Sequence record: NC_028903.1
From: Escherichia phage 172-1
Strand: one strand, 5' to 3'
DNA: 64,000 bases
Numbering within the stretch: the stretch's first letter is position 1; the number at the start of each line of letters is the position of its first letter. Of the stretch, positions 5,254 through 62,212 are shown piece after piece. The notes under the pieces are model-generated. The model saw only the letters and a list, made by a program, of their open reading frames with translations. It was not told the origin of the DNA and did no database searches. The position numbers and the translations under genes were made by a program.

Positions 5254-5282
5254 AGCTGCCTTCGGGTGGCTTTTCTTGTTTT
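5254..5282 (+). terminator. rho-independent terminator (UUCG tetraloop hairpin + T-run)
   Basis: agctgcc-ttcg-ggtggct followed by ttttcttgtttt. Confidence 0.6.
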
Positions 5283-5304
5283 AAGACCTATACAAGCTAG
5301 TGTG

Positions 5305-5313
5305 TAATGTATA
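5305..5313 (+). promoter_or_regulatory. TAATGTATA promoter-like motif
   Basis: exact 9-mer 33 nt upstream of ATG 5347; same 9-mer recurs at 22172, 31700 and in reverse at 31628. Confidence 0.35.
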
Positions 5314-16602: not shown

Positions 16603-17637
16603 ATGGCGTATGGAATATGGACAAGACCGGTCGGTCCGGGGCCAGCAGCACCTGCTGATATTTACATTGACAGTGGTAGCACATTCCCTCAGTTAAGAAA
16701 CAGGGTCAGTGGTAATTTTTCTTTTAATGGTAACACATGTGATCTACCTATAAGCGGTTGGGATGGAAGTGGTCAGATAGTTGTAGTCCCAACAGGGTCT
16801 GTTGTTTGGGAGAGATACATACCTCCTAATGTAACATCTGATGTGTATTGGCTAACGGATATATCTGTTATTAATAACTCAACCTTCAGAGTTACTATGG
16901 ATTATAATGTAAACGGTTGGGTATTTGATATGGCTTTTAATGTATATCAAATATGGCCTAGAGCTAACAGGAACTATGGAATCACATTCTCCAACTCTGC
17001 TGACTATTTCTCAATCTCTGATTCTGGAGTTGTTGGTCAATGTATTTGGGCTTGGGAGGGTGACATAAATGGTGCTCTTCAAATACCAGATATTGGTGGT
17101 TTTGATATGAGCCGAGCAACTGTCTACGCGAATTGGAGTAACGGCGGAGCAGGTCTGCTATACAACCCATCCAATAGGGTTGTTTATGTGTACCAGAACA
17201 GGTCTCATGATAATGGTAACACAAACCAAACAGGGTACATTGGTGGTGTTAGGATTGCCGTCTTCTGTGATGGTTCGGGAGTACCAACCCACAATGGAGG
17301 TTTAAATATCTTTTCTCCAAATGGGTCTCAGTGTGTTTTTTCTACATATAGAACCCCTTTTAGTGTTGAGGGGTTTATGCCTATGAGTGGTGGTAACACA
17401 TCTTTGGCCTATCCAATGATACCTCTATCTTATGGTGCTGGAGCAATAAGAGGTAAGGCTAGTGGTTGGTATTTTCAACACACAAGATCTCACATGATGA
17501 ATGGCTCTTCTTTTGGTACAGGTTTCGGAAGGATGATTTACTCTTGGAGTAGTCAATATGATTTAGGAGGGGGTGGTGCCCTCGGGTTAAGTATTCCAAT
17601 ATTAGATGCTAGAAAGATATTCAGGAGTATACAATAA
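16603..17637 (+). CDS. virion protein, hypothetical
   Basis: 344-aa ORF, start overlaps the previous stop. Confidence 0.4.
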   Translation: MAYGIWTRPVGPGPAAPADIYIDSGSTFPQLRNRVSGNFSFNGNTCDLPISGWDGSGQIVVVPTGSVVWERYIPPNVTSDVYWLTDISVINNSTFRVTMDYNVNGWVFDMAFNVYQIWPRANRNYGITFSNSADYFSISDSGVVGQCIWAWEGDINGALQIPDIGGFDMSRATVYANWSNGGAGLLYNPSNRVVYVYQNRSHDNGNTNQTGYIGGVRIAVFCDGSGVPTHNGGLNIFSPNGSQCVFSTYRTPFSVEGFMPMSGGNTSLAYPMIPLSYGAGAIRGKASGWYFQHTRSHMMNGSSFGTGFGRMIYSWSSQYDLGGGGALGLSIPILDARKIFRSIQ

Positions 17638-20495: not shown

Positions 20496-22151
20496 ATGCA
20501 ACAGACAACTTACGCTCAGGTCAGAAGTCGTGACCCGAGAAATACTTTCTATGGTGTTAATCCGGGAGCGGCTTCGGCCTCTCCTTATATGGCTAGACCT
20601 ACTCAGACAGCGGATGTTTCTATGTACCAGCGTCCTGCTGTACCTTCATCTCTCGCAGGTCTTGTCTCTCAGGCAGAAGAAGATCAGAATGCTATGGTGA
20701 ATCCGGGATTCCAGCAACGTCTTATGGAACAACAGAATCAAGGAACCCCAACAAGTCTTCAGGGTATTGACATTGGAGCACCAGCCCCTGTAGCAGCTAA
20801 TCCTAATTTATCTACTGATCAAGGTTTGCAGGATGCTGGACTTATGCCTAGTGACCCTCTTCCGGTGACACCTCCTGCCAAGCCACTAGAAACTGGTCCT
20901 ATGGAGTTTACTCCTTCTCAGGTTGAACAAGCACAAGGTGTTGTTAATACTCTTGCTCAAGGACAAGACACCGGTGACGGAATGGCTGCTGCTACTCGTA
21001 CTAAAGATCAAGAGCGTGTTAACAATGATATCTTGCAAGTTGCAAAAGCTAAAGATCCTTCAGAAGCTTGGAAGAAGTTACAGAAAGAACCTTTCTATCA
21101 GAACTCTAGTTTCTATACAGGTTTAATGGGTGTAGGTCTTTCTATCATGTCAGGTAAATCTCCTATCGAAGCATTCCAGATTGGTCAGGGGATGGCTAAT
21201 CAAGATGAGACTAAAAAGCAACTGGAAGCTAACCGTGATGCTCTGATTGAACAAGGTTTCTCTCAAGACTCAATTGCAGCTGCTATAGCTCAGGGTGATC
21301 CTTCTCTTCTGAAGATGAAAGCTAAAGACCCTCTTCAACAGGAAGCTCTGTATGCTGCTCGTGAAGAACGTCAGAATGCTGAATGGGATAGACGTCAACA
21401 GATTCAAGAGCAGTCTATGCGTGAACGTGCTGAGGAAACTCGTCGTGCTGCTGAAAAGAGAACTGACATGAACTTTGAACGTCAGAAAGAGTTGATTGGT
21501 TATCGTGATAAAGTTAAGGCTGAACGTGCTGAACAAGTTGCTCAGAGTTTTAACTTCCCCACGAAAGAAATTCGTAACGCTCAGAATACAGCTGAAGGTA
21601 CAATTGCTAAGCAGTGGGCAGAGAAAGGTGGCCTGTTTAACCAGTCTAACAAAGACTTGGATTTGGCTGATAAAGCTGTTAAGGACAAGGATTACCAGAC
21701 GGCCCGTTCTGCTTACATGCAGGCTATCATGAACTCCGCAAGGGCTGAAATCGGCTCTACTCGTTCTCTTACTGAAGAAGACTTGGGACATTTTGCAGAA
21801 GACCCATCAATCTTTATCCGTGTAGGTAACAAGTTCGCTCTGAAGTCTGGGTGGCGTCCTACTGATTCTGCTCTTGCTTATGCTCGTAAACAGGCTAACG
21901 TCGGTCATACCTCTGCTATGAAAGGTGTTGCTGATGCTAAGAGAGATACTATCAACGCTTATGTTGGTTCTGGTATGGATAAGAAGAGAGCTACTGCATT
22001 GGTTAACCGTGCAATTCCTTCTGGCGGTTTCTATGACCCTCTCGGTGTTTTCTCTGATGAAGCAGAAGATTATGTTGGTGGTGCAGCAACCAACCCTAAA
22101 CTGAACGGTGCTTTATCAGCTGTCGAAGACACTAGCTGGTTCACGCAATAA
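20496..22151 (+). CDS. internal virion protein, hypothetical
   Basis: 551-aa ORF in the late block. Confidence 0.45.
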   Translation: MQQTTYAQVRSRDPRNTFYGVNPGAASASPYMARPTQTADVSMYQRPAVPSSLAGLVSQAEEDQNAMVNPGFQQRLMEQQNQGTPTSLQGIDIGAPAPVAANPNLSTDQGLQDAGLMPSDPLPVTPPAKPLETGPMEFTPSQVEQAQGVVNTLAQGQDTGDGMAAATRTKDQERVNNDILQVAKAKDPSEAWKKLQKEPFYQNSSFYTGLMGVGLSIMSGKSPIEAFQIGQGMANQDETKKQLEANRDALIEQGFSQDSIAAAIAQGDPSLLKMKAKDPLQQEALYAAREERQNAEWDRRQQIQEQSMRERAEETRRAAEKRTDMNFERQKELIGYRDKVKAERAEQVAQSFNFPTKEIRNAQNTAEGTIAKQWAEKGGLFNQSNKDLDLADKAVKDKDYQTARSAYMQAIMNSARAEIGSTRSLTEEDLGHFAEDPSIFIRVGNKFALKSGWRPTDSALAYARKQANVGHTSAMKGVADAKRDTINAYVGSGMDKKRATALVNRAIPSGGFYDPLGVFSDEAEDYVGGAATNPKLNGALSAVEDTSWFTQ

Positions 22152-22171
22152 GACCTAAGTCCTGCCTTCTA

Positions 22172-30821: not shown

Positions 30822-31568
30822 TTAGAATGGGCTATCGTTGTCGTCTTCATAAGTAGAAGCAGGTTCTTTATCAATCGTAGGGATTGAAGGAGTAGCTTCT
30901 TTCTGTTCTGTTTCAGAAGCACGAGTAATTTCACGACCAGCCAGAGGCATGTTCTTAGCGTCATTAGCTTGAGTAAGCAGGTTGCGCTGGAACGGGAACA
31001 TCAGTTGATAGGATGCTACGTTCTCATCGGTTTCTGCATACGGTTCGAAGAATACCAGAGGACTGCGAGCTTCACCAACTGCTGCACGATATTTGGTTGG
31101 GATTGGAGAAATGGTTTTGATGGAGTTTTTAACTTCACCAGCTTTATTAGTGTAAGAGTTAACCAGAATGTTAACAGGCTGACCTAACAGCACATCCTTA
31201 AACCAAGACAGATCACCTTTCAGTGCTTGAATGCTTGGGTCAATCATCTTGCAGAGATCAAGGATACCAGAGTTCTTAGCTCGTGGGTTTACATCATAGC
31301 TCTTGAACTGGCAAGCAGGACGTGGTTCTAATGCCTTACCATCGGAATCTTTACCAGTAGCATCAACACCAATCAGCTCGAAAGCCAAATCCATACGGAA
31401 AGCTGGATTCTTAGGAGTTACTGCTTTGGTCTTCGGGTCAATCCAAGGGTCACGATTGTGAACACCCAAACCTACTACACGAACAATACGTGCTTCGTAC
31501 TCACCATCAGGGATGACGTCGTAGTTGGATTTACGGGAAGAAGTTGCGATAGTTGGAATCATAGACAT
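30822..31568 (-). CDS. single-stranded DNA-binding protein
   Basis: 248 aa ending in acidic tail EDDNDSPF (compare SSB C-terminal DDDIPF). Confidence 0.55.
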   Translation of the reverse strand: MSMIPTIATSSRKSNYDVIPDGEYEARIVRVVGLGVHNRDPWIDPKTKAVTPKNPAFRMDLAFELIGVDATGKDSDGKALEPRPACQFKSYDVNPRAKNSGILDLCKMIDPSIQALKGDLSWFKDVLLGQPVNILVNSYTNKAGEVKNSIKTISPIPTKYRAAVGEARSPLVFFEPYAETDENVASYQLMFPFQRNLLTQANDAKNMPLAGREITRASETEQKEATPSIPTIDKEPASTYEDDNDSPF

Positions 31569-31984
31569 ATTTTAATTTCCTTATTTAATTTGAAAGATTG
31601 TTGCTCTCTTTGAGCGGTTATGTATAGTATACATTACGCTTATACCGATAAGAGTACTATATAATATAAGTATCTTTGGTAGTAGATATAACACACTAGT
31701 AATGTATATATTGTATAGCTGATAAAGTTATTGCAGGCTTGTATATTGGGCAATTCACAGAATCCCTTGCAAGTACCGAAGGGCAGGAGCCACCTGCGAG
31801 ATAAAAATAGAGAATTAAGGAATCCTTGATTTAGGTTGTAGGGACTCCTAGGGACTTTGATTCTCTATTTAAAAGAATATTAATTACTTACTACCTAAAT
31901 AATTAACTAACTTACTTAAACCAAATTCAAGAATGATAGATAAAAAGATTATTCCTAAGAAAGCTAAGAAGTAAAGTATATAAG
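31569..31984. promoter_or_regulatory. AT-rich noncoding regulatory region (promoters, possible origin)
   Basis: about 416 bp without ORFs; TAATGTATA in both orientations (31628-31636 reverse, 31700-31708 forward); 11-bp inverted repeat AAATAGAGAAT/ATTCTCTATTT (31805-31815 / 31860-31870); direct repeat TAGGGACT x2 (31839-31856). Confidence 0.4.
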
Positions 31985-32114
31985 TTACCATTCAAGTAAA
32001 CCTTTAAAGTTAGATTGTTCTACTATCCTCTGATAACGAAGATTAGAATCAGCTTGTTTCTTTAACATCTCATTATATTTATCTCTGATAGAGTCTTTAT
32101 AAACTACAGGTTCT

Positions 32115-32624: not shown

Positions 32625-33107
32625 TTAGATAGTTAATTTGTGATCTTCCTCCGCTCTGTTTCTAACAGAGACGGCTTCCTCTAGGGTTGAGAAAGTTCCT
32701 AGGTATTTAGTTTTACCCTTAATGTGGATATTGGCTATGTACTTCCCTCTTGAATTGAGGTATACACCCTTAGCCCCTGATGTGTTGTTAGAGTTCAAAC
32801 CCTTGTTCCAAGAATTATTCTCGTTGTTAACTTCTCTAAGGTTGCCTATGGAATCATTGGAAGGGTTTCGATCAATGTGATCTATTTGATCTTTAGGTAA
32901 AACGCCATTAGCAAAATACCAAATGATGTGGTATCTGTAAATGGATCTTCCTTTCACTCGGATAAGTACTCTTCCATCCTTTTTTGAAGTTCCTGCCTCA
33001 TCGCCCCGCCTGCATTTTGTTCCGTTGTGAATTCTCCAGAACACTTTTCCAGATGATAAATCACAAACAAAGAACTCATCCAGAAGATCTTCTATCATAT
33101 CATGCAA
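32625..33107 (-). mobile_element. HNH-AP2 homing endonuclease
   Basis: IDHIDRNPSNDSIGNLREV (HNH) plus AP2-like DNA-binding segment GKYIANIHIKGKTKYLGTFSTLEEA. Confidence 0.6.
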
Positions 33108-34785: not shown

Positions 34786-36630
34786 TTAGTGCGTATGCAT
34801 CCAGTTGAGTCCAATCTGACAATCAGATGCCAGAGGACATTCCATGTTCAAATACTCACCAGCCTTCTTAACACAAAGCTCGGTGTGCTCTTTGAGTTTC
34901 TGTACATCATTACGATTAACTGAGAACTGGCCCTCATCATGCATATCAATTACCTTAGCACAACGAACTCCATCCTTCTCAATCCACTTGTTAAGGAACA
35001 TCATAGCATATTTCATAACAACAGCACCAGCACATTGCAGGAGAGTGTTAAGTGCTTTATGAACCATAACCTTACCAGTGGCATCTCGTCTCATTGTAAT
35101 CTTACGACCATCAACACCAATCAAGTACCCTTGAGCTGCTTTCTCTGTCATACGATCAATGAGGATTGCAATACATGGGTTCTCTGCCAAGAAACGTGCT
35201 CGCATCACTGAACCTTCATCAGCCCCACCACCTACAATTGAACCAAGCTTAGCATCACCAGCACCATAGTTGAATGCGTAGATAAACGTCTTAGCGTTGT
35301 CACGAGTAGGAAGACCAGCAAGTCTCTGGTTGTGGGAGTGGATATCACCTTCAAGGAGAATATCACGATACATAATAGCAGAAGCTAAACCACGTTCTGC
35401 CAGAGCTTTCTTAGCTGGATTATTCTCTTCTATTGCTTCAGCAAGCATATCCCTACACTCTTTAATGAGGTAGTGTGCGAGCATACGCAATTCTAATCCA
35501 GAACCATCATACCCTAAGAATACTTCTTTACCAGCGGGTATGTAATATTTGTAAGCACCTACAGGTTTGTCTTTCTTCCCCGGCTTACCTTTCTCATAAA
35601 TTACGTTAGTACCTTTTCGTATATAACAACCATCAGGAACAACGTTAGTAATAACGAAAGGACGAGAGTGATCATCATCTGAGTTATAGTCAGACTCAAA
35701 CAAACCGCGACACTCATGACCAAACAAACCACGGGAGGGAATATTAACCACGATACGATGTTTGAATCGAAAAGTCGGAGTAGCGCAGCTGTTAGCTTCT
35801 GCCGAAAGTTTACCATCTTCGCGTTCCTTTGCTATAAGTCCACTGATAAGACCTAGCCTGTGAGCCGCTACAACGCGTCTCTTAAGCAAACTTCCGACAC
35901 TCCCTAGCTCACCCCCTAACCCTTCTTCAAGAGTCTCCTCGAGGTTTGTAGGAGCTGTAGGCCACTTGTTTGAGGTAGCTAGTGCTATCTTAATCTCATC
36001 AAAAGTGATAGGTCTACGTCGGTTAGGATTTAAACCTAAACCAAAAACATAAGCCTTCATGTAGTTCTTAGTTTTAAACCTAAAGTGCTTCTCTAAGAAC
36101 TTTCTGATATCAGCGTCAACCATCTCGGCTGTCTGCTTCTGTTTAGAATTACCTCGCATCCAAGCTGAATACCATGCTTGGTATGTTCCATACTTTCGCA
36201 TATCTTTCTTGATTTCAAAAGTATTCCAAGGTTTCTTTGATACGTTAAACTCTGGAGGAAGAAAACCCTCATCCATAAGGGCTTCTTTAACTCGTGCATC
36301 TTTCGATGGGTCAAAGTCCACGTATTCAACACAGGTGAATGCTCCACCAATGTCCTCTCTCTTAAGTCCAACTCTATCACAATAGGCTTGAGGCCACTTC
36401 TGTAAAGCTCCAGACTTCTTAAATGGCTTCATATAAGTAGAGCCATCTAATCTCATCTTAGGTAAGAGAGGAATTAATTCTTTGTCAATATTAACAATAA
36501 TCTCTTTAAGGAGGTGAACATACCACCGAGCATTTCTTTGGTTGAAACTCACTCCGTGCTTCGCTTGCTTAGAGATTATATCAGCGACAGTCATCTCTGT
36601 CAAAAATGGGAGAGCGTCCGGGTTGCTCAC
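34786..36630 (-). CDS. DNA polymerase, family A polymerase domain
   Basis: motif A GYDGSGLELRMLAHY, motif B RDNAKTFIYAFNYGAGDAKLG, motif C VIDMHDEG; no exonuclease motifs in this ORF. Confidence 0.8.
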   Translation of the reverse strand: MSNPDALPFLTEMTVADIISKQAKHGVSFNQRNARWYVHLLKEIIVNIDKELIPLLPKMRLDGSTYMKPFKKSGALQKWPQAYCDRVGLKREDIGGAFTCVEYVDFDPSKDARVKEALMDEGFLPPEFNVSKKPWNTFEIKKDMRKYGTYQAWYSAWMRGNSKQKQTAEMVDADIRKFLEKHFRFKTKNYMKAYVFGLGLNPNRRRPITFDEIKIALATSNKWPTAPTNLEETLEEGLGGELGSVGSLLKRRVVAAHRLGLISGLIAKEREDGKLSAEANSCATPTFRFKHRIVVNIPSRGLFGHECRGLFESDYNSDDDHSRPFVITNVVPDGCYIRKGTNVIYEKGKPGKKDKPVGAYKYYIPAGKEVFLGYDGSGLELRMLAHYLIKECRDMLAEAIEENNPAKKALAERGLASAIMYRDILLEGDIHSHNQRLAGLPTRDNAKTFIYAFNYGAGDAKLGSIVGGGADEGSVMRARFLAENPCIAILIDRMTEKAAQGYLIGVDGRKITMRRDATGKVMVHKALNTLLQCAGAVVMKYAMMFLNKWIEKDGVRCAKVIDMHDEGQFSVNRNDVQKLKEHTELCVKKAGEYLNMECPLASDCQIGLNWMHTH

Positions 36631-62135: not shown

Positions 62136-62212
62136 TGGCGCACCGTGGAGGATTCTAACCTCCAACCAATTTCTTAGAAGGAAACTGCTCTATACAATTG
62201 AGCTAACGGCGC
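62136..62212 (-). tRNA. tRNA-Arg (anticodon UCU)
   Basis: hand-folded cloverleaf: acceptor GCGCCGU/ACGGUGC, D stem GCUC/GAGC, anticodon stem GUUUC/GAAAU with loop CUUCUAA, T stem GGAGG/CCUCC with loop UUAGAAU, discriminator G and encoded CCA. Confidence 0.65.

What the first reader, a model, noticed from the sequence alone, without database searches (positions are those of the whole stretch)
31569..31984. About 416-bp AT-rich noncoding region with promoter-like motifs in both orientations and inverted and direct repeats
This is the largest gap in the minus-strand block. It holds TAATGTATA on both strands (31628-31636 reverse, facing the SSB gene; 31700-31708 forward, which would produce antisense or a noncoding RNA), an 11-bp perfect inverted repeat AAATAGAGAAT/ATTCTCTATTT (31805-31815 and 31860-31870) and a direct repeat TAGGGACT x2 at 10-bp spacing (31839-31856). 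Its position beside the SSB gene and the repeat architecture fit a replication origin and/or a regulatory switch.
Basis: seen in the sequence. Interest (0 to 1): 0.55.

Follow-up and report, generated by a model that had tools for sequence, protein, structure and literature searches.

The report
Unannotated phage non-coding RNA gene
The gap upstream of gene 40 of this phiEco32-like coliphage holds one known phage promoter and, pointing the other way, an apparently unreported promoter for the phage's own sigma factor. That second promoter appears to drive a highly conserved, structured non-coding RNA of about 156 nt whose role is unknown.

Summary
The window is a Kuravirus (phiEco32-like podophage). 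The minus-strand TAATGTATA (31628-31636) is the published gp36-sigma middle promoter P40. The plus-strand TAATGTATA (31700-31708) is not among the six published gp36 promoters. It carries the same -35 box (TTGGTAGTAGATA, 31676-31688) at the same 12-nt spacing as promoter P68. Both boxes are conserved, and the spacer varies in sequence but not length, in about 30 distinct relatives. No conserved ORF follows it. The predicted transcript (+1 about 31715, to about 31873) starts with a hairpin that shows compensatory changes. A replaceable middle module follows, in two non-homologous versions. The 3' domain (P3-P4, 31779-31873) is almost invariant and is the most conserved stretch in 1.8 kb. Conservation stops at the P4 base, followed by 77-85% AT in at least four unrelated flank types. 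There is no match in Rfam, E. coli genomes, plasmids or other phage groups. Best reading: an unannotated middle-phase non-coding RNA gene. A transcription-primed replication origin remains a live rival. Expression is not shown.

The parts
31569..31621 (-). 5' untranslated leader of gene 40 (the putative SSB gene), running from the predicted P40 start at 31621. It contains an invariant small hairpin (GCUC-AAAGA-GAGC, + coordinates 31603-31615) and the Shine-Dalgarno sequence AAGGAAA.
   Evidence: Sequence. Invariant in 14 phages. Fold energy -5.2 kcal/mol. The start position is inferred from the published rule that the TSS lies 6-8 nt downstream of the element.
31628..31636 (-). -10-type element TAATGTATA of the known gp36-dependent middle promoter P40 of phiEco32 (SU10: 'between CDS37 and CDS38').
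   Evidence: Exact motif. The sequence is identical to the SU10 Table S2 entry 'aagcgtaatgtatactatacataaccgctcaaagagagcaa'. P40 is listed among the six gp36 promoters.
31676..31688 (+). -35 box TTGGTAGTAGATA of the new plus-strand promoter. It is identical to the -35 region of P68 (window 42924-42912, minus strand).
   Evidence: These are the only two exact copies in the window. Both lie 12 nt from AATGTATA. The gp36 C-terminal domain contacts -37G and -34A in the P68 cryo-EM structure (PMC12276001). TGGTAG is kept in all variants.
31700..31708 (+). -10-type element TAATGTATA of the new plus-strand gp36-type promoter. The predicted transcription start is A31715.
   Evidence: Exact motif. Invariant in 14 phages while the spacer sequence varies at constant length. 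Not in the published promoter lists.
31715..31731 (+). P1, a hairpin at the 5' end of the predicted RNA (AUAGCU-GAUAA-AGUUAU).
   Evidence: 97.8% of cells are paired and 2 of 5 pairs show compensatory changes (U-A to G-C; C-G, A-U and U-A). G-C alternates with G.U, and the G.U form is a valid pair only on the + strand. Covariation score is 0.261 against 0.122+/-0.022 in shuffles (0 of 500 reach it), and slid controls give 0.02 or less.
31736..31777 (+). P2, a replaceable middle module. This window has type A (41-42 nt). In 12 phage records a non-homologous 68-nt type B replaces it between the same flanks (UUGCA ... GAAGGGCAGGAG).
   Evidence: Alignments. Type B is found in 12 records. Both versions can close on their own ends, but the thermodynamic support is weak (z -0.95 and -1.23). 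One compensatory pair within type B (U-A in MN05, C-G in ECBP2).
31783..31797 (+). P3, the hairpin GCAGG-AGMCA-CCUGC. The stem is invariant and the only variable base (C or A) is in the loop.
   Evidence: -7.9 kcal/mol. No covariation is available. An alternative long-range pairing UUGCAGG/CCUGCGA is also possible.
31805..31870 (+). P4, a long 3' hairpin domain. The upper part contains the two TAGGGACT copies (31839-31846, 31849-31856) and the palindrome CCUAGG.
   Evidence: Energy is -23.5 kcal/mol (z -3.06) as + RNA and -18.2 as - RNA. Three G.U pairs, and one A-to-G change that keeps a G.U pair (phage XT18), are valid only on the + strand. Mean pairwise identity is 0.94-0.99, the highest in 1.8 kb.
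31715..31873 (+). The predicted conserved non-coding RNA: about 156-159 nt here and 180-184 nt in type B phages. Conservation ends at the base of P4.
   Evidence: MFE is -46.4 kcal/mol (z -2.58) for the + strand and -35.3 (z -1.57) for the - strand. No conserved ORF on either strand. GC skew is +0.19 on +. No Rfam match.
31874..31984 (.). Extremely AT-rich right flank (21.6% GC). In this window it overlaps the small ORF 31884-31991 (-) (phi32_41). In other phages it is replaced by unrelated but equally AT-rich sequence.
   Evidence: The 60 nt after P4 are 77-85% AT in at least 4 non-homologous flank types. The 99th percentile of 60-nt windows in this phage is 71.7%. Composition.

Best explanation
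The region holds two back-to-back promoters for the phage sigma factor gp36.

The leftward one is the known middle promoter P40, which drives gene 40 (the putative SSB gene) and the genes beyond it.

The rightward one (-35 box 31676-31688, -10 element 31700-31708, predicted start A31715) does not appear among the six published gp36 promoters in the papers I could read. It is of the P68 class and drives no protein gene. It makes a non-coding RNA whose first 156 nt or so (31715 to about 31873) are the functional unit. That unit consists of:
- a 5'-terminal hairpin (P1);
- an exchangeable middle module (P2);

Inferred mechanism: host RNA polymerase carrying gp36, helped by gp79, fires this promoter in the middle phase. 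There is no intrinsic terminator, so the 3' end is probably made by cleavage in the unstructured AU-rich flank and trimming back to the base of P4. The 5' and 3' hairpins would make the RNA stable. The RNA would then act as an RNA, through its invariant 3' domain binding a conserved partner (protein or nucleic acid) that is not yet identified.

Shown: motif identity with P68, the conservation pattern, covariation in P1, and the absence of coding potential or any known family.

Inferred: that the promoter is active, where the RNA ends, that it is stable, and that it acts in trans.

My confidence that this is a real non-coding transcription unit is about 0.7-0.75. My confidence in the trans-acting mechanism specifically is about 0.4. 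The single confidence value given with this entry (0.6) is for the statement as a whole.
For: 1. Promoter. AATGTATA occurs 7 times in 64 kb against 2.2 expected. Five of the sites are P13, P26, P40, P58 and P68. One lies inside an ORF. The seventh is this one. It shares 13 of 13 nt of the P68 -35 box at identical spacing, and this box includes the -37G and -34A read by gp36 in the cryo-EM structure. Both boxes are conserved while the 12-nt spacer varies in sequence but not in length across Kuravirus, Suseptimavirus and Nieuwekanaalvirus and metagenomic contigs.

2. RNA-level selection. P1 starts at +1 and shows compensatory changes that beat both shuffle and slide controls. G.U pairs in P1 and P4 fit only the + strand. 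The + strand folds better than the - strand.

3. Conservation. Identity is 0.94-0.99 at 31781-31860, against 0.72-0.96 in gene 40 and 0.36-0.57 to the right. Conservation ends at the P4 base, next to at least 4 unrelated flanks.

4. The P2 swap changes the promoter-to-P4 distance by 26 bp. That is hard to reconcile with phased DNA sites and easy to reconcile with a modular RNA.

5. Not coding. The longest ORF changes strand, frame and length among variants.

6. The element is a portable unit. In ES17-type phages an ORF is inserted between P40 and the RNA promoter, and the unit is kept intact.

7. The element is present in 97 of about 100 related phage records.
Against: - No transcript data were available. 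Promoter activity, the RNA ends and RNA stability are all inferred.
- P2, P3 and P4 have almost no informative variation, so their structure rests on energy predictions. The P2 modules are not significantly stable (z -0.95 and -1.23), and type B folds better as minus-sense RNA (z -2.28).
- There is no intrinsic terminator on the + strand.
- No partner or target was found. Complementarity to the rest of the phage is at chance level, and there is no similarity to E. coli.
- Near-total invariance of 95 nt is more than RNA structure alone usually imposes. It could reflect DNA-level or two-strand constraints, or homogenisation by recombination.
- Pavlova et al. 2012 (PMC3275717), the primary transcription paper, could not be read. 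An earlier mention of this promoter cannot be fully excluded, although three later papers from or citing that work count only six promoters.
Confidence: 0.6

Rival explanations
1. Transcription-activated replication origin. The orphan gp36 promoter makes a primer or R-loop transcript that enters the AT-rich tract to its right, which acts as a DNA unwinding element. The phage DNA polymerase extends it there. Together with the divergent P40, this could start bidirectional replication near the middle of the genome. It would be analogous to the T7 primary origin (phi1.1A/B plus an AT-rich region), the T7 orphan promoters phiOL/phiOR, and T4 oriF/oriG (middle-mode promoter plus unwinding element).
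For: - The phage-specific promoter has no gene behind it.
- The 60 nt after P4 are 77-85% AT in at least 4 unrelated flank types, above the 99th percentile for this phage. Composition is conserved, not sequence.
- The promoter is of the P68 class, so it should fire in the middle phase, when the replication genes are expressed.
- It sits inside the replication-gene block, at 36.6-37.0 kb of 77.5 kb in phiEco32.
- The transcribed strand is G-rich (skew +0.19), which favours RNA-DNA hybrids (established knowledge for ColE1 and mitochondrial origins).
Against: - A simple primer would not need an invariant 95-nt folded domain or a covarying 5' hairpin.
- The AT-rich tract begins about 160 nt from the start site.
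- GC skew only follows gene orientation and has no inflection here.
- Forks leaving this site would meet most transcription head-on: late genes on + to the left, and middle and early genes on - to the right.
- Only two short repeats are present, and their spacing differs (10 or 9) between phages.
- In this window the AT-rich tract is largely the coding sequence of a small annotated ORF.
Confidence: 0.2
2. Cis-acting transcriptional insulator or antisense unit. The rightward promoter fires head-on into read-through transcription coming from P58. The P4 sequence, read on the minus strand, may act as a weak terminator (hairpin followed by UUUUUAU). Pairing of the + RNA with read-through transcripts could trigger RNase III cleavage. 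Either way, expression of gene 40 would depend on P40 alone. This resembles lambda OOP RNA.
For: - The new promoter points against every neighbouring gene and is convergent with P58 transcription.
- The minus-sense P4 hairpin (-18.2 kcal/mol, z -3.7) is followed by UUUUUAU.
- Any read-through transcript would be perfectly complementary to the RNA over about 159 nt.
Against: - Complementarity in cis is automatic, so this model does not explain the sequence invariance or the covarying 5' hairpin.
- The gene lying antisense to the downstream part of the transcript differs among phages (phi32_41, a phosphoesterase, gp40.1), so there is no conserved antisense target.
- The terminator scan found nothing on either strand. 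The stem is AT-rich with a 38-nt interior.
- In ES17-type phages an ORF with no promoter of its own lies downstream of the element on the minus strand, so read-through must occur.
Confidence: 0.1
3. DNA-level regulatory switch. The inverted repeat and the two TAGGGACT copies are operator sites for a phage DNA-binding protein that controls P40 and/or the plus-strand promoter.
For: The repeats are real and conserved. Two 8-bp direct repeats one helical turn apart would lie on the same face of the DNA.
Against: - The repeats lie 125-155 bp downstream of the plus-strand start and more than 180 bp upstream of P40.
- Their distance to both promoters changes by 26 bp between type A and type B phages.
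- The repeat spacing changes from 10 to 9 and both units lose a G in one lineage. The RNA fold absorbs this by a register shift.
- Alone, neither repeat exceeds chance.
Confidence: 0.05
4. No function of its own. The plus-strand motif is a chance or relic promoter, and the conservation reflects recent common descent or recombination 'linker' sequence between gene modules.
For: - One other exact TAATGTATA (16938) sits inside an ORF and may be chance.
- Mosaic junctions coincide with the edges of the conserved blocks.
Against: - A 13-nt -35 box identical to P68 at identical spacing is not expected by chance.
- The boxes are conserved while the spacer varies.
- The element is more conserved than the adjacent coding sequence.
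- There are compensatory changes in P1.
Confidence: 0.03

Closest known systems
phiEco32 middle promoter P68 (gp36 sigma, gp79-activated; Pavlova et al. 2012; cryo-EM open complex in PMC12276001)
   Same: The -35 box TTGGTAGTAGATA is identical. The -10 element AATGTATA is the same and lies at the same 12-nt spacing. The -37G and -34A contact bases are kept. The transcript also starts with a small hairpin.
   Different: It points the opposite way to all middle genes and has no ORF behind it. It is absent from the published lists of six promoters. Its activity has not been tested.
T7 primary origin (promoters phi1.1A/phi1.1B plus an AT-rich region), T7 orphan promoters phiOL/phiOR, and T4 oriF/oriG (middle-mode promoter plus DNA unwinding element). 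These are cited from established knowledge.
   Same: A phage-specific promoter that serves no gene, probably active in the middle phase, followed by a very AT-rich tract whose composition rather than sequence is conserved.
   Different: Here about 160 nt of invariant, folded RNA lie between the promoter and the AT-rich tract. There is no replication data. The orientation is unfavourable relative to transcription.
Lambda OOP RNA (77-nt antisense RNA from its own promoter between cII and O; once proposed as a replication primer)
   Same: A short RNA from its own promoter, transcribed against the flow of a long operon, next to replication genes.
   Different: OOP uses sigma-70, ends at an intrinsic terminator and overlaps a fixed target (the cII 3' end). 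This RNA has no terminator and no conserved overlapping gene, and its sequence is far more constrained.
phi29 pRNA (Rfam RF00044) and the T4 stable RNAs C and D (species 1 and 2)
   Same: Phage-encoded structured RNAs of 120-180 nt from their own promoters. phi29, like Kuravirus, is a prolate-headed podophage.
   Different: No sequence or structure match (no Rfam match at E up to 10 in this stretch). Kuraviruses package with a terminase, so there is no reason to expect a packaging RNA.

Membership tests
gp36 (phiEco32 sigma)-dependent promoters | -10-type element tAATGTAtA | tested here: met
   Exact TAATGTATA at 31700-31708 (+). There are 6 exact copies in the window against 0.56 expected.
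gp36 (phiEco32 sigma)-dependent promoters | -35 region read by the gp36 C-terminal domain (-37G, -34A), as in P68 | tested here: met
   TTGGTAGTAGATA at 31676-31688 is identical to P68 and at the same spacing. TGGTAG is kept in all variants.
gp36 (phiEco32 sigma)-dependent promoters | Boxes conserved among relatives, spacer free to vary at fixed length | tested here: met
   At least five different 12-nt spacer sequences, all of the same length, in about 30 distinct variants.
gp36 (phiEco32 sigma)-dependent promoters | Transcript 5' end 6-8 nt downstream of the element in vivo, and transcription by core+gp36 in vitro | not testable with these tools
   This needs primer extension, 5'-end sequencing or in vitro transcription.
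Any Rfam 15 RNA family (including phi29 pRNA, 6S, Y RNA-like, ribozymes, riboswitches, CRISPR repeats) | Covariance-model score at or near the gathering threshold | tested here: not met
   The only match overlapping the element is CRISPR-DR47 at 16.5 bits (gathering 39), E = 8.1, on the minus strand at 31855-31891. There is nothing for type B phages.
Intrinsic (Rho-independent) terminator | G+C-rich hairpin with a short loop, followed directly by a U-tract | tested here: not met
   The scan found 0 sites on either strand. On the + strand, P4 is followed by UUUAAAAG. On the - strand UUUUUAU follows, but the stem is AT-rich with a 38-nt interior.
Transcription-activated phage origin (T7 primary origin or T4 oriF/oriG type) | Phage-specific promoter followed by an AT-rich unwinding region | tested here: met
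   Orphan promoter. The 60 nt after P4 are 77-85% AT, above the 99th percentile, in at least 4 flank types. The tract starts about 160 nt from +1.
Transcription-activated phage origin (T7 primary origin or T4 oriF/oriG type) | Replication actually initiates here | not testable with these tools
   This needs marker-frequency sequencing or 2D gels. GC skew is uninformative because it tracks gene orientation.
Iteron-type origin | Array of several (usually 3 or more) phased direct repeats for an initiator protein | tested here: not met
   There are only two 8-bp copies. Spacing is 10 in some phages and 9 in others. No tandem array is present.
Cis-antisense RNA (lambda OOP type) | Overlaps a conserved target gene on the opposite strand | tested here: not met
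   The conserved RNA body overlaps no gene. The downstream gene differs among phages.
Small protein gene | A reading frame conserved among relatives | tested here: not met
   The longest ORF is 21-57 aa and changes strand, frame and start among variants.

The most novel reading that the evidence does not exclude
A new family of phage-encoded structured RNA, confined to the Gordonclarkvirinae. It would be made from a dedicated promoter for the phage sigma factor. It would carry an exchangeable specificity module (P2 type A or B) on an invariant scaffold (P3-P4), and would act in trans on a host or phage factor. Possible roles are a decoy or guide contributing to host takeover, or to the unusually broad resistance of these phages to defence systems. 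An equally novel alternative is a structured primer RNA that defines the first replication origin known in this phage group.
Probability: 0.3. Interest if true: 0.75.

Novelty: new member of a known kind. Interest (0 to 1): 0.55.

Why it matters
phiEco32 is the model system for sigma replacement by a phage: gp36 and gp79, with a cryo-EM structure published in 2025. Its transcription map is described as six gp36 promoters.

A seventh promoter, of the strongest (P68) class and driving no protein, would revise that map. It would also add a non-coding RNA to a phage group that is abundant, used in therapy cocktails, highly resistant to known defence systems and little studied at the molecular level (PMC11990801).

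The element is small and sharply bounded. It can be tested directly with existing reagents (purified core, gp36, gp79) and with existing RNA-seq data. It is either a new phage RNA with an unknown partner or the first handle on where these phages start replication.

Tried and rejected
- **Known RNA family.** Rfam scans in E-value mode of the window and of three type B loci gave nothing relevant. No tRNA or tmRNA lies here.
- **Host mimicry or host-derived sequence.** No blastn match in 5,426 E. coli genomes, even at E up to 10. None in plasmids. A 21-mer from P4 is absent from 185,579 GTDB genomes.
- **Wider distribution.** IMG/VR and metagenome pattern scans returned only Kuravirus-like contigs plus unrelated GC-rich chance hits. 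Three more distant relatives (gene 40 homologue 67-70% identical) lack the element upstream of that gene.
- **Trans targets inside the phage.** The longest Watson-Crick complementarity is 11 nt, with 9 hits against roughly 4-5 expected (my estimate). Duplex energies against 106 translation-initiation regions gave no outlier apart from a spurious ORF that overlaps the element itself, and gene 40 ranked 79th. No paralogue of the element exists in the window.
- **CsrA sponge.** The RNA has 4 GGA motifs against about 3 expected from composition (hand count). Dropped.
- **Small ORF.** Rejected.
- **GC skew as an origin signal.** It tracks gene orientation only.
- **Checking that gene 40 is an SSB.** No functional match in Pfam, PDB or PHROGs. 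The single-sequence AlphaFold model was unusable (pLDDT 36.6), so no fold search was run.
- **Primary literature.** Pavlova 2012 and Savalia 2008 are not held in the library.
- **Covariance model.** I did not build one, because only sequences already fetched could have been searched with it.

Full report
**What the window is.** The 1.9 kb around the finding matches 100 phage records at 80-99% identity, 91 of them Escherichia phages. These include NJ01, SU10 and phiEco32. The intergenic stretch alone matches 97 records. The fetched records are classified as Gordonclarkvirinae, in the genera Kuravirus, Suseptimavirus and Nieuwekanaalvirus. The flanking genes are phiEco32 gene 40 (30822-31568, minus strand) and the small ORF phi32_41 (31884-31991, minus strand).

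**Checking the observation.** The stretch has 30.3% GC against 42.3% for the window. It is the largest interval in the minus-strand block without a sizeable minus-strand ORF. TAATGTATA is strongly over-represented: 6 copies against 0.56 expected. The 11-bp inverted repeat and the 8-bp direct repeat are not significant in isolation. They are reached in 15 of 300 and 59 of 300 dinucleotide shuffles respectively. Conservation is what makes them meaningful.

**The minus-strand promoter is known.** phiEco32-like phages replace sigma-70 with their own sigma, gp36. Its promoters share tAATGTAtA 6-8 nt upstream of the start site (PMC8948821; PMC4281155). Six such promoters are published, in front of genes 6, 13, 26, 40, 58 and 68. 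The SU10 entry 'between CDS37 and CDS38' is letter for letter the reverse complement of 31600-31640. So 31628-31636 (-) is P40.

**The plus-strand promoter appears to be new and has full promoter anatomy.**
- AATGTATA occurs seven times in the window.
- Five copies are the homologues of P13, P26, P40, P58 and P68. One lies inside a 344-aa ORF. The seventh is 31701-31708 (+).
- Thirteen bases upstream of it, TTGGTAGTAGATA (31676-31688), occur only once more in the window. That copy lies in P68, at the same 12-nt distance from AATGTATA.
- In the 2025 cryo-EM structure of the gp36/gp79 open complex on P68, the gp36 C-terminal domain reads -37G and -34A. Mutating these abolishes transcription (PMC12276001). 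Counting from P68, those bases are the G and A of TTGGTAG, and both are present here. This places +1 at A31715.
- Across about 30 distinct sequences, both boxes are kept while the spacer takes at least five different sequences of constant length. One metagenomic contig has a G-to-A change at -11.
- None of the phage records I fetched annotates this promoter. None of the Kuravirus papers I read mentions it.

**What the promoter transcribes.** No reading frame is conserved. The longest ORF is 21-57 aa and changes strand, frame and start codon among variants. The sequence falls into blocks instead.

- *P1 (31715-31731)* is a hairpin that begins at the predicted +1. It exists in seven sequence versions. 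Two of its five pairs change on both sides (U-A to G-C; C-G, A-U and U-A). One alternates between G-C and G.U. 97.8% of cells are paired. The covariation score is 0.261 against 0.122+/-0.022 in shuffles, and 0.02 or less when the partners are slid. The G.U form would be an A.C mismatch on the minus strand.
- *P2 (31736-31777)* comes in two non-homologous versions between fixed flanks. Type A is 41-42 nt. Type B is 68 nt and occurs in 12 phage records. Both can close on their own ends, and type B has one compensatory pair, but their folding energies are not significant.
- *P3 (31783-31797)* is a 5-bp hairpin whose only variable base is in the loop.
- *P4 (31805-31870)* is a long hairpin. One phage (XT18) changes an A-U pair there to G.U. 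The two TAGGGACT copies sit in its upper part.
- In one lineage both TAGGGACT copies lose a G and the spacing falls from 10 to 9. The predicted fold absorbs this by a register shift, and all 18 type A sequences remain compatible.
- The whole RNA folds at -46.4 kcal/mol (z -2.58) as plus sense and -35.3 (z -1.57) as minus sense.

**Conservation profile.** In a 14-genome alignment, mean pairwise identity is 0.987 at 31781-31820 and 0.94 at 31821-31860. That is the highest in the 1.8 kb examined. Gene 40 scores 0.72-0.96 and the region to the right 0.36-0.57. Conservation stops at the base of P4. To its right, at least four unrelated sequences occur in different phages. All are 77-85% AT over the first 60 nt, beyond the 99th percentile (71.7%) of this phage. 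In ES17-type phages a small ORF is inserted between P40 and the RNA promoter, and the promoter-RNA unit is kept intact.

**Comparison with what is known.**
- Rfam 15 gives nothing above noise for either type.
- There is no similarity to E. coli genomes, plasmids or GTDB genomes.
- IMG/VR and metagenomes return only Kuravirus-like contigs.
- More distant relatives lack the element at this position.
- The papers I could read on phiEco32, SU10, SU7, YF01, 7-11 and the BASEL Gordonclarkvirinae do not mention an RNA gene or a rightward promoter here.
- The primary transcription paper (Pavlova 2012) was not available.

**Interpretation.** The best-supported reading is a self-contained non-coding transcription unit. 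It consists of a P68-class gp36 promoter, back to back with P40, producing an RNA whose conserved body runs from about 31715 to about 31873.
- There is no intrinsic terminator. I infer that the 3' end is made by cleavage in the unstructured AU-rich flank and trimming back to P4.
- I also infer that the terminal hairpins stabilise the RNA.
- The 26-bp change in promoter-to-P4 distance between types A and B argues against phased DNA sites and for a modular RNA.
- The near-invariance of P3-P4 suggests sequence-specific contact with a conserved partner. I could not identify one.

**Rivals.**
- *Transcription-primed origin.* This rival has real circumstantial support: an orphan phage promoter, an AT-rich tract conserved in composition only, middle-phase timing and a mid-genome position. 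It does not explain the invariant folded domain. It also implies head-on fork-transcription conflicts in both directions, and GC skew is uninformative.
- *Cis-antisense or insulator role.* This is possible, but it does not explain the sequence constraint. No overlapping gene is conserved. ES17-type phages need read-through across the element.
- *DNA operator switch, or a chance motif.* Both are unlikely, for the spacing and conservation reasons given above.

**Verdict.** The origin idea is unproven. The item is a new member of a known kind, namely an unannotated phage non-coding RNA with a new promoter of a known class. It is of moderate interest because it sits in a model transcription system and is cheaply testable. 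Expression and function remain to be shown.

Noticed in passing
window 5282-5290 and 22149-22157 (+): The two late-type gp36 promoters in the window (AATGTATA at 5306 and 22173) share an exact TAAGACCTA box 24 nt upstream. This upstream element differs from the TTGGTAGTAGATA box of P68 and the new promoter, and may distinguish late from middle promoters. A third exact copy at 35847 is not next to a promoter motif.
   Followed up: partly
window 16938-16946 (+): An exact TAATGTATA lies inside a 344-aa ORF (16603-17637, +). It could be a chance occurrence or an internal late promoter. It has no recognisable -35 box of either class.
   Followed up: partly
Its single-sequence AlphaFold model was unusable (pLDDT 36.6). 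Among the records fetched, only Ptacy1479 labels it ssDNA-binding. Its acidic C-terminal tail (...YEDDNDSPF) resembles SSB tails.
   Followed up: partly
L009 (phage ES17) 882-1025, minus strand: ES17-type phages carry an extra 47-aa ORF inserted between P40 and the RNA promoter. Its start codon overlaps the -35 box, which becomes ATGGTAG. The ORF has no promoter of its own, so transcription must read through the RNA element on the minus strand.
   Followed up: partly
L021, L022, L023 (IMG/VR contigs), about 60-160 nt upstream of the gene 40 homologue: More distant relatives (gene 40 homologue 67-70% identical) lack this RNA. In the same position they share another conserved block of about 100 nt (GGAAGCATCTAGCAAAGCTAGCATATCAAAGCTAAGCTAAGCTATATGCTTTATCC), which contains an inverted repeat AGCATAT/ATATGCT.
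   Followed up: no
window 32625-33107 (-): A 160-aa ORF whose sequence looks like an HNH/AP2-type homing endonuclease (not tested). Among the best hits it is present only in this window, NJ01 and YF01. In the other relatives the match stops at about 32633.
   Followed up: no
L006 (MN05) and L005 (ECBP2), type B middle module of the RNA: The 68-nt type B module folds better as minus-sense RNA (z -2.28, 13-pair stem with G.U pairs) than as plus-sense RNA (z -1.23). This is the opposite of P1 and P4, and I have no explanation for it.
   Followed up: partly
window 62136-62212 (-): A tRNA-Arg (anticodon TCT), the single tRNA typical of Kuravirus genomes.
   Followed up: no
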